Below, in pieces: positions 18,969 through 19,264 of a stretch of DNA of 64,000 nucleotides. The DNA lies in contig CP086569.2 of NCBI GenBank assembly GCA_009914755.4, forward strand, positions 2,112,001-2,176,000, read 5' to 3'. Both the position numbers and the translations under genes were made by a program. The stretch comes from the human T2T-CHM13v2.0 reference genome, Homo sapiens. The notes under the pieces are model-generated. The model did not search any database and was not told where the DNA came from. It saw only the letters and a program-made list of their open reading frames with translations. Within the stretch, counting starts at the first letter, position 1; each line of letters begins with the position of its first letter.

Positions 18969-19264
18969 GGCCGGGCGCTGTGACTCACGCCTGTCATCCC
19001 AGCACTTTGGGAGGCTGAGGCGGGTGGATCACCTGAGGTCAGGAGTTCCAGACCAGCCTGACCAATATGCTGAAACGCTGTGTCTACTAAAAATACAAAA
19101 ATTAGCCAGGTGTGGTGGCAGGCACCTGTAATCCCAGCTACTCAGGAGGCTGAGGCAGGAGAATTGCTTCAACCCGGGAGATGTTGGCTGCAGTGAGCCG
19201 AGATTGAGCTATTGCACTCCGGCCTGGGCAACAAGAGAGAAACTCCGTCTCAAAAAAAAAAAAA
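18969..19264 (+). mobile_element. Chimeric Alu (+) at the junction between the old-L1 module and the L1PA module
   Basis: The left half matches the Alu after the old L1 (13631). The right half (…GAGATGTTGGCTGCAGTGAGCCGAGATTGAGC.ATTGCACT…) matches the Alu preceding the L1PA module (30251-30558). Confidence 0.75.

What the first reader, a model, noticed from the sequence alone, without database searches (positions are those of the whole stretch)
18969..19264. Module junctions and a deletion fall inside chimeric Alus, pointing to Alu-mediated recombination
The Alus at 18969-19264 and 36016-36305 join the old-L1 module to the L1PA module. Their left halves match the Alu found after the old L1 and their right halves match the Alu preceding L1PA modules elsewhere (30251, 40835). 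The Alu at 41451-41755 is a left/right chimera of the L1-embedded Alu and the Alu downstream of the L1PA, and in that copy the L1PA 3' half is missing. The LTR-segment paralogs at 15071 and 27148 begin with Alu right-halves, whereas the 9599 copy has the full Alu. Taken together, the complex appears to have been built and later edited by non-allelic Alu-Alu exchange.
Basis: seen in the sequence. Interest (0 to 1): 0.5.

Follow-up and report, generated by a model that had tools for sequence, protein, structure and literature searches.

The report
Hybrid Alus at repeat-unit junctions
In a 39-kb block of old tandem duplications beside the human ZBED1 gene, several Alu repeats are true hybrids of two parental Alus, so Alu-to-Alu recombination made one duplication and two deletions there; this is a well-known mechanism and explains only part of the block.

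Summary
The Alus at 18969-19264 and 36017-36305 are full-length hybrids. Their left flank and Alu positions 1-177 match the Alu that ends the old-L1 module (13631, 24557, 46111). Positions 187-282 and their right flank match the Alu that starts the younger-L1 module (30252, 40835). Both parental types keep matching target-site duplications and the hybrids do not, so the hybrids are the derived form. The two hybrids lie in one 6.5-kb paralogous block, so they record one event, not two. The Alu at 41452-41755 is also a hybrid, with about 650 bp deleted, including the L1 3' end. I found one more hybrid, the minus-strand Alu composite at 14233-14656, with about 1.1 kb deleted.

The "Alu right halves" at 15063 and 27143 are truncated Alus joined to non-Alu sequence through a 2-bp overlap. 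The junctions at 15844/27933 and at 10263 are also non-homologous. Exchange within the 50-bp minisatellite probably accounts for other module orders.

The window is human PAR1 (ZBED1 within DHRSX). Divergence puts the hybrid-forming duplication at or before the human-macaque split. This is a clean new example of a known mechanism. Interest is low to moderate.

The parts
18969..19264 (+). J2: hybrid Alu (A-type left two-thirds, D-type right third) joining old-L1 module A2 to younger-L1 module D2
19146..19154 (+). J2 switch interval (GAGGCTGAG, Alu consensus 178-186; conservatively extends to 19164)
   Evidence: Last A-type site is 19145 and first D-type site is 19155
36017..36305 (+). J5: paralogous copy of the same hybrid Alu, joining A5 to D5
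36190..36198 (+). J5 switch interval, at the same Alu position as in J2
13631..13913 (+). AluA1: unrecombined A-type parent (A module | B module) with intact TSD (G)GTATCCACACTG
24557..24839 (+). AluA3: A-type parent with intact TSD
46111..46386 (+). AluA7: A-type parent with intact TSD. The macaque orthologue carries the A-type right-arm states.
30252..30538 (+). AluD4: unrecombined D-type parent (x | d1) with intact 15-bp TSD GAAAAGAAAACAGAC
40835..41126 (+). AluD6: D-type parent with intact TSD
41452..41755 (+). K6: hybrid Alu (E-type left, F-type right) marking an in-register deletion of about 650 bp that removed the L1 3' end. Best split is 41591|41600; the switch is resolvable only to about 41553-41645.
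19559..19836 (+). E2: Alu inserted in the L1 ORF2 3' end (TSD ...AATGGGAT). Parental type for the K6 left part. Paralogues at 30892-31169 and 36596-36855.
20186..20465 (+). F2: Alu directly after the L1 poly-A, carrying a 6-bp internal deletion. Parental type for the K6 right part. Paralogues at 31521-31796 and 37218-37479.
19837..20207 (+). d2: L1 3' end between E and F. Present in copies 2, 4 and 5 (also 31182-31520, 36875-37239) and missing from copy 6.
14233..14656 (-). B1 composite of two AluJ pieces. It is a hybrid of the left cluster (25188-25751, 46731-47289) and the right cluster (26287-26720, 47831-48297). About 1.1 kb, including the unique segment 25752-26286, is deleted from unit 1. 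Switch near 14376-14379.
9599..9881 (+). H: full-length Alu preceding segment c in unit 1
15063..15186 (+). H' in unit 2: Alu H truncated at consensus position about 162 and joined to non-Alu B1 (GT overlap). A non-homologous unit junction.
27143..27266 (+). H' in unit 3: a copy of the same B|H' junction
15844..15955 (+). G' in unit 2: Alu G truncated at consensus position about 170 and joined to segment c. Second copy at 27933-28046. Full-length G with a roughly 20-bp TSD at 21056-21332, 32425-32693, 38071-38358 and 42292-42580.
10258..10267 (+). c|V1 junction (breakpoint 10262/10263): segment c joined to the minisatellite through a roughly 5-bp CYAAG overlap. About 0.9 kb (rest of c, G', p) is missing from unit 1.
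9599..48698 (+). The whole complex. Units: U1 9758-15062, U2 15063-27142, U3 27143-48698. It holds seven 50-bp-period minisatellite arrays: 10263-12186, 16499-17545, 21867-22986, 28586-29913, 33232-34558, 38882-40496, 43128-44672.

Best explanation
The complex (9.6-48.7 kb) is an old, partly homogenised set of tandem duplications in human PAR1, 3' of ZBED1.

Starting material: before the rearrangements, the unit already held two L1 3' fragments (older A, younger D), a 50-bp minisatellite (V) and several Alu insertions, each with its own target-site duplication.

Step 1 (shown): one in-register exchange joined the Alu at the end of module A (AluA, downstream) to the Alu at the start of module D (AluD, upstream). 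It happened within a 9-bp identical stretch at Alu positions 178-186. The product is a hybrid Alu with an A-type left part and a D-type right part. This is the orientation expected at the junction of a tandem duplication of the roughly 5.6-5.8 kb segment D-p-V-A.

Step 2 (shown): a later, larger duplication copied this junction. The hybrid now exists twice, as J2 and J5.

Step 3 (shown): two later in-register Alu-Alu deletions trimmed individual copies. K6 (E x F) lost about 650 bp, including the L1 3' end. The B1 composite lost about 1.1 kb.

Step 4 (shown): the higher-order unit boundaries (B|H', c|G') and the c|V1 deletion are non-homologous or microhomology joints. They have at most one breakpoint in an Alu.

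Step 5 (inferred): unequal exchange within the minisatellite arrays explains why a given array is followed by A in some units and by x-AluD-D in others.

Enzymatic route (not resolvable from sequence): meiotic unequal crossing-over (NAHR) or homology-guided template switching or annealing. In either case Alu homology set the register.
For: - Flank switch plus a perfect partition of informative sites in J2 and J5: 13-14 sites, permutation p = 0.0016 and 0.0006, controls not significant.
- Reciprocal identity by part.
- TSD test. A-type Alus have GTATCCACACTG on both sides. D-type Alus have (G)AAAAGAAAACAGAC on both sides. J2/J5 have the A-type left TSD and the D-type right flank.
- One origin for J2 and J5: a single collinear 6.5-kb paralogous block with the same switch interval in both.
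- K6: unambiguous flanks, full-length Alu, missing d2 segment.
- B1 composite: 77 informative sites, p = 5e-5.
- Non-homologous joints are read directly from alignments.
- L1 identity of modules A and D.
- Excess over chance.
- Age. The macaque orthologue of AluA7 already has the A-type right arm. Local neutral human-macaque distance is about 0.07, against 0.06-0.12 between the J2 and J5 blocks.
- The criteria for hybrid Alus come from PMC2041999, PMC6071635 and PMC9675761.
Against: - The parents are paralogues in the same sequence, not orthologous pre-event alleles. The direction of each event rests on TSDs and parsimony.
- The first D-type site in J (position 187) is the Alu consensus state, so the switch interval is conservatively 178-196.
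- In J2/J5 the right-hand D-type TSD is reduced to ...AGAC after the A tail, so only the absence of the A-type TSD is clean.
- K6's internal sites are mosaic between positions 153 and 189 and the test on them alone gives p = 0.076. The TSD of the F parent could not be resolved.
- Paralogue distances are not tree-like (for example b1 97% but b2 82% for the same pair of units). Gene conversion has therefore acted, and both the event order and the ages are approximate.
- The step involving exchange within minisatellite arrays is inferred, not shown.
Confidence: 0.85

Rival explanations
1. The hybrids arose by replication-based template switching or break repair (MMBIR/FoSTeS, MMEJ or single-strand annealing) that used short Alu identity, not by meiotic unequal crossing-over. 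The products would look the same; only the route differs.
For: - An Alu is shorter than the segment usually thought necessary for efficient NAHR, and these routes are proposed for Alu/Alu rearrangements (PMC6071635).
- The switch interval seen today is only 9 bp.
- The same complex contains microhomology joints. A 780-bp H'-c piece sits between two such joints (B|H' and c|G'), which resembles a templated insertion.
- No PRDM9 13-mer lies at any switch point.
Against: - The locus is in PAR1, where male meiotic crossing-over is obligatory and very frequent (established knowledge).
- When the event occurred the Alus were young and far more alike than now, so the true tract of identity was probably much longer than 9 bp.
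- Sequence alone cannot separate the routes.
Confidence: 0.3
2. The mosaic pattern in J2/J5 and K6 comes from gene conversion between neighbouring Alus, with no rearrangement at those Alus.
For: Patchy identity among paralogous segments shows that conversion operates in this complex. K6 has a mosaic zone at positions 153-189.
Against: - The flanking unique sequence switches module at exactly these Alus. Conversion within an Alu cannot produce that.
- TSDs are mismatched.
- About 650 bp and about 1.1 kb are physically absent at K6 and B1.
Confidence: 0.03
3. J is the original Alu insertion, and the A-type and D-type Alus are the recombinants.
For: Any one of three Alu types that share parts pairwise could formally be the recombinant.
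Against: - A-type and D-type Alus each have matching TSDs on both sides in every copy; J does not.
- The A-type right arm exists in macaque at the orthologous last unit.
- This scenario needs two additional parental Alus that are not observed.
Confidence: 0.02
4. The whole complex, including its unit boundaries, was built by Alu-Alu exchange.
For: Eight of 12 breakpoints fall in Alus against 26% expected. Three junction types are true hybrids.
Against: - B|H', c|G' and c|V1 join Alu or minisatellite sequence to non-Alu sequence with 0-5 bp of overlap. They leave truncated Alus, not reconstituted ones.
- The V->x and V->a alternation has no Alu at the junction.
Confidence: 0.05

Closest known systems
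Alu recombination-mediated deletion (ARMD; Sen et al. 2006; Han et al. 2007, PMC2041999)
   Same: K6 and the B1 composite match the pattern. Two same-orientation Alus are replaced by a single full-length hybrid Alu. The sequence between them is lost, and the flanks and TSDs come from different parents.
   Different: The pre-deletion state is seen in paralogous copies in the same sequence, not in an orthologous species. The switch points (about 145-198 in K6) lie outside the reported 24-45 hotspot. The events are old and the Alus heavily decayed.
Alu/Alu-mediated rearrangement giving tandem duplication (AAMR, PMC6071635; TEMR-HR duplications, PMC9675761)
   Same: J2/J5 is a hybrid that reconstitutes a full Alu, with a short identical stretch at the switch. 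The downstream Alu contributes the left part and the upstream Alu the right part, which is the orientation expected at a tandem-duplication junction.
   Different: This is a fixed, ancient event (at or before the human-macaque split), not a polymorphic or pathogenic CNV. The junction was itself re-duplicated later.
Alu enrichment at segmental-duplication junctions (Bailey et al. 2003, as cited in PMC6071635 and PMC9675761)
   Same: Duplication boundaries fall in Alus more often than chance predicts. The events date to soon after the AluS burst.
   Different: Only one of the duplication junction types here is a true Alu-Alu hybrid. Two others merely have one breakpoint inside an Alu.
Non-homologous TE-associated rearrangements (TEMR-NHE, PMC9675761) and microhomology-mediated joints
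   Same: B|H', c|G' and c|V1 show 0-5 bp of overlap and truncated elements.
   Different: In TEMR-NHE both breakpoints lie in TEs. Here only one breakpoint lies in an Alu, or none in the case of c|V1.
Unequal exchange within minisatellite arrays
   Same: Seven arrays of the same 50-bp unit lie in direct orientation, and module order differs immediately after the arrays.
   Different: This is inferred only. No array-internal hybrid was demonstrated.

Membership tests
Homology-driven Alu-Alu rearrangement (AAMR / TEMR-HR) | Both breakpoints lie in Alus of the same orientation | tested here: met
   J: AluA and AluD are both on the + strand. K6: E and F are both +. B1: both clusters are on the - strand.
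Homology-driven Alu-Alu rearrangement (AAMR / TEMR-HR) | The hybrid reconstitutes a full-length element, i.e. the exchange is in register (criterion in PMC9675761) | tested here: met
   J2 covers consensus 1-282 in 283 bp, J5 covers 1-282 in 276 bp, and K6 covers 3-282 in 279 bp.
Homology-driven Alu-Alu rearrangement (AAMR / TEMR-HR) | A single switch from parent-1 states to parent-2 states, with an identical stretch at the switch | tested here: met
   J2/J5: perfect partition with a 9-bp interval, GAGGCTGAG. B1: p = 5e-5. K6: direction is right but the pattern is mosaic and p = 0.076 on internal sites.
Homology-driven Alu-Alu rearrangement (AAMR / TEMR-HR) | Parents have matching TSDs; the hybrid has the left TSD of one parent and the right flank of the other (TSD criterion used in PMC2041999) | tested here: met
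   Met for J. For K6 the left TSD of E is present and its right copy is absent, but the TSD of F could not be resolved.
Homology-driven Alu-Alu rearrangement (AAMR / TEMR-HR) | The pre-event allele is observed at the orthologous position in an outgroup | not testable with these tools
   Only 10 kb 3' of macaque ZBED1 could be fetched. It reaches the last unit but not J2, J5 or K6. Paralogous copies stand in for the pre-event state.
Alu recombination-mediated deletion (ARMD) | Loss of the sequence between the two parental Alus | tested here: met
   The d2 segment (about 370 bp) plus one Alu-equivalent is absent at K6. The unique segment 25752-26286 plus one cluster-equivalent is absent in B1.
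Alu recombination-mediated deletion (ARMD) | Breakpoint in the 24-45 core hotspot (a tendency, not a requirement; PMC2041999) | tested here: not met
   The switches lie at consensus 178-186 (J) and about 145-198 (K6).
   The sequence left of the junction is non-Alu B-module sequence. The last unit continues into GCCCACGAAG... and then a minus-strand Alu. Only a GT overlap is shared, and the Alu is truncated at about position 162. The same holds for c|G'.
Meiotic NAHR specifically | Reciprocal products, flanking-marker exchange, or a PRDM9 motif near the junction | tested here: inconclusive
   No PRDM9 13-mer lies at any switch; the hits are decayed Alu antisense sites elsewhere. Reciprocal products cannot be tested in a single haplotype.

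The most novel reading that the evidence does not exclude
The cluster of seven 50-bp minisatellite arrays interleaved with Alus 3' of ZBED1 could be a recombination-prone structure specific to human PAR1. On this reading, its unusual density of homology-guided rearrangements (at least three Alu-Alu events plus array exchanges within 39 kb) reflects the obligatory-crossover break load of the PAR. It would be loosely analogous to the minisatellite arrays that concentrate break-forming proteins in the mouse PAR (bioRxiv 10.1101/536136, seen). Nothing here tests that. The rearrangements are old, and they could equally reflect ordinary Alu density.
Probability: 0.05. Interest if true: 0.6.

Novelty: new member of a known kind. 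Interest (0 to 1): 0.22.

Why it matters
Alu-mediated duplication and deletion is a textbook source of structural change in primate genomes, so the mechanism is not new. What this locus offers is an unusually complete record in a single haplotype. Both parental Alus with intact target-site duplications, the hybrid junction, its later re-duplication, and two subsequent Alu-Alu deletions all sit next to clearly non-homologous joints. It therefore works as an internal comparison of homology-driven and non-homologous rearrangement. It also lies in PAR1 inside DHRSX and beside ZBED1, a region where copy-number variation and assembly errors are plausible. The practical lesson is that a breakpoint inside an Alu is not by itself evidence of Alu-Alu exchange.

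Tried and rejected
- Pfam scan of translated modules A, D and d3: no L1 model hit and only noise. I replaced it with a PDB sequence search, which found L1 ORF2p.
- Rfam: only one Alu left arm reached the SRP threshold, which is uninformative.
- PRDM9 13-mer scan: 13 hits against 2.8 expected, but nearly all are decayed Alu antisense sites. None lies at a switch or in the minisatellite.
- Orthologue comparison: only 10 kb on each side of macaque ZBED1 could be fetched. That reaches the last unit but not J2, J5 or K6. I found no way to walk further.
- K6 breakpoint test on internal sites alone: not significant (p = 0.076). The conclusion rests on the flanks, the full-length hybrid and the missing segment.
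- A full event-by-event history and tree: abandoned, because paralogue distances are not tree-like.
- I considered that B|H' might involve the minus-strand Alu 25 bp downstream of the last unit (48723-48998). Rejected: the orientation is wrong for a tandem duplication and the junction lies outside that Alu.
- I considered that the L1 fragment x+D was inserted at the V|A boundary, because both exits from the array are in the same repeat phase. No flanking duplication was found, so this stays unresolved.
- Literature searches for a description of this ZBED1/DHRSX complex found nothing.
- TRF on 2.4-4.4 kb found no array, although BLAST shows a roughly 500-bp repeated unit there.

Full report
**Where the window is.** An intact 694-codon ORF on the minus strand (53379-55463) has BED zinc-finger and hAT dimerisation domains. 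It is identical to human ZBED1. From established knowledge of that gene, the window is human pseudoautosomal region 1 (PAR1). Primate loci fetched through ZBED1 show it nested in an adh_short gene, DHRSX. The window holds 67 Alu matches.

**Anatomy of the complex.** Self-alignment shows that 9.6-48.7 kb is a set of direct repeats at about 80-91% identity. After masking Alus and the tandem arrays, the unique pieces fall into clear families:
- c: 3 copies
- p: 6 copies
- a1 and a2: 5 copies each
- b1 and b2: 3 copies each
- x: 2 copies
- d1 and d3: 4 copies each
- d2: 3 copies

Seven arrays (V1-V7) of a 50-bp unit, each 1.0-1.9 kb long, punctuate the complex.

Module A (a1, an AluJ dimer, a2) ends in an AluS. 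Module D runs d1-E-d2-F-d3-G, where E, F and G are Alus. Translations of D and A match the last 59-70 residues of L1 ORF2p in solved structures (E = 1e-16 and 1e-14). A is the more diverged. The "LTR" label for segment c could not be checked.

The module order is:
- U1 = H c V1 A1 AluA1 B1
- U2 = H' c G' p V2 A2 J2 D2 p V3 A3 AluA3 B3
- U3 = H' c G' p V4 x AluD4 D4 p V5 A5 J5 D5 p V6 x AluD6 D6 p V7 A7 AluA7 B7

**The central claim: J2 (18969-19264) and J5 (36017-36305).** I aligned these two Alus, with 100-bp flanks, against the three Alus that lie between A and B (13631, 24557, 46111) and the two that lie between x and D (30252, 40835).
- The J flanks are A-type on the left and D-type on the right.
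- At sites that separate the two parental groups, all 6-7 sites at Alu positions 11-177 are A-type. All 7 sites at positions 187-239 are D-type.
- A maximum chi-square test with 20,000 permutations gives p = 0.0016 for J2 and p = 0.0006 for J5. Control tests of an A-type and a D-type Alu are not significant.
- Identity by part shows the same thing. J2 is 91-93% identical to the A-group and 78-80% to the D-group on the left. On the right it is 87-89% identical to the D-group and 77-81% to the A-group.
- The switch lies in GAGGCTGAG (19146-19154 and 36190-36198, Alu positions 178-186). The first D-type site is the consensus state, so a conservative interval is 178-196.

**Direction of the J event.** Target-site duplications (TSDs) give the direction.
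- Every A-type Alu is flanked on both sides by (G)GTATCCACACTG.
- Every D-type Alu is flanked on both sides by (G)AAAAGAAAACAGAC.
- J2 and J5 have the A-type TSD on the left and the D-type flank (...AGACATATTC) on the right.

The A-type and D-type Alus are therefore original insertions and J is the recombinant. A hybrid with the downstream Alu on its left and the upstream Alu on its right is what a tandem duplication of the interval between them produces. The spacing fits this: AluD4 to J5 is 5765 bp and J2 to AluA3 is 5588 bp.

**One event, not two.** J2 and J5 sit inside a single collinear 6.5-kb paralogous block (16508-22940 against 33479-39939, 84% identity). They also switch at the same place. 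They are two copies of one junction.

**K6 (41452-41755).**
- Its left flank is that of the E Alus, which interrupt the L1 ORF2 3' end and carry the TSD ...AATGGGAT. Its right flank is that of the F Alus, which follow the L1 poly-A.
- Only one full-length Alu lies between these flanks. The d2 segment (the L1 3' end) is absent.
- Internal sites are E-type from positions 10 to 144, mixed from 153 to 189, and F-type from 198 to 269.
- The test on these sites alone is weak (p = 0.076). Identity by part agrees with a hybrid.
- This is an in-register Alu-Alu deletion of about 650 bp, specific to copy 6.

**A further hybrid.** The minus-strand AluJ composite in B1 (14233-14656) has the left flank of the 25188/46731 clusters and the right flank of the 26287/47831 clusters. 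It switches near 14376-14379 (77 sites, p = 5e-5). It lacks the 535-bp unique segment between those clusters.

**Junctions that are not Alu-Alu.**
- *B|H'.* At 15062/15063 and 27142/27143, non-Alu B sequence (...AAAATTTAGT) runs straight into Alu position about 162 (AATCCCAGC...). The last unit instead continues into GCCCACGAAG and then a minus-strand Alu. The full Alu H at 9599 reads ...CCGGTAATCC. The overlap is only GT. This is the boundary of the higher-order unit. It formed once and is now present twice.
- *c|G'.* At 15843/15844 and 27932/27933, segment c joins Alu G at about position 170. Full G, with a roughly 20-bp TSD, survives in all four D modules.
- *c|V1.* At 10262/10263, segment c joins the minisatellite through a roughly 5-bp CYAAG overlap. 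About 0.9 kb is lost from U1.
- *Array exits.* V->a and V->x occur at the same phase of the 50-bp unit, with no Alu involved. Removing the two [x AluD D p V] segments from U3 makes it collinear with U2. Exchange between arrays is therefore the simplest explanation for their presence or absence. This is inference.

**Chance.** Alus occupy 26% of the complex. Eight of 12 breakpoints in Alus gives p = 0.004. Three in-register Alu-Alu events out of six has a probability of about 3e-7 under random breakpoints.

**Age.**
- The macaque ZBED1 3' flank contains the orthologous p-V-A-AluA unit. Its AluA carries the A-type right arm.
- Neutral human-macaque distance here is about 0.07 (non-CpG K2P). The ZBED1 coding sequence is at 0.016.
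- The J2 and J5 blocks differ by 0.06-0.12. The duplication that copied J, and hence J itself, is therefore about as old as the human-macaque split or older.
- The block carrying K6 has closer relatives (p6-p7 0.02, d3 0.047).
- Distances are not tree-like across segments, which indicates conversion. These ages are minimum estimates.

**Mechanism and comparison with known cases.**
- Full-length hybrid, mismatched TSDs, a short identical stretch at the switch and loss of the intervening DNA are the published criteria for Alu recombination-mediated deletion. They are also the criteria for homology-driven Alu/Alu rearrangement (PMC2041999; PMC6071635; PMC9675761).
- The switches lie outside the 24-45 hotspot. 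That hotspot is a tendency, not a requirement.
- Sequence cannot decide between meiotic unequal crossing-over and homology-guided template switching or annealing. No PRDM9 13-mer lies at any switch. PAR1's recombination rate makes the meiotic route plausible. The neighbouring microhomology joints show that other routes acted here too.
- No description of this particular complex was found.

**Verdict.** It is wrong for the truncated Alus at the unit boundaries. This is a new, tidy example of a well-known mechanism.

Noticed in passing
53379-55463 (-): An intact 694-aa ORF identical to human ZBED1 (BED finger plus hAT dimerisation domain). This places the window in PAR1, nested in DHRSX. Human-macaque non-CpG distance is 0.016 in the coding sequence against about 0.07 in the flanks.
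   Followed up: yes
10263-12186, 16499-17545, 21867-22986, 28586-29913, 33232-34558, 38882-40496, 43128-44672: Seven arrays of one 50-bp minisatellite (consensus CACTGAAGACGTTCCCTAAGAATGTGGCCAAGGGACCGCCACCATGTACA), 20-36 units each. All exits into module A or segment x occur at the same repeat phase (...GAAGACGTTCCCTAA|), and the first roughly 25 bp of module A look like a degenerate unit. Origin and family name are unknown.
   Followed up: partly
The AluJ composite in unit 1 is left-cluster on one side and right-cluster on the other, with about 1.1 kb deleted (p = 5e-5).
   Followed up: yes
15062/15063, 27142/27143; 15843/15844, 27932/27933; 10262/10263: Three non-homologous or microhomology joints (B|H', c|G', c|V1). 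The 780-bp H'-c piece lies between two such joints, both at Alu positions about 162-170, and resembles a templated insertion at a duplication junction.
   Followed up: partly
24848-27142 compared with 46392-48696: Patchy paralogue identity within one pair of units. The b1 and extra-b segments are about 97% identical, but b2 is only about 82%. This suggests gene conversion or a mosaic history.
   Followed up: partly
L002 (macaque, CP168063.1), reverse-complement coordinate about 4072: A macaque-specific deletion joins AluA at about position 215 directly to the unique B segment (human 46327 to 47411, about 1.1 kb missing). It is a non-Alu-Alu joint, GGAGGCAGA|TCCAGTTTTGG.
   Followed up: partly
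58819-60134: A separate AT-rich minisatellite 5' of ZBED1, with period about 56-83 bp (154-bp higher-order unit at 90% identity). It is also present in macaque.
   Followed up: no
50196-50685: A purine-rich (GGA/AGGA) low-complexity tract. It creates long spurious ORFs on both strands.
   Followed up: no
2743-4127: A small local repeat. An Alu plus about 200 bp of unique sequence recurs three times at a spacing of about 500 bp (78-87% identity). TRF does not report it.
   Followed up: no
20623-21048, 37636-38103, 41858-42421 (+): Paralogous 141-187-aa ORFs (MSV(K/R)RIPF(N/S)VE...) are kept open in three of the four d3 copies. There is no Pfam match, so this is probably chance in GC-rich sequence. 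I did not test further.
   Followed up: partly
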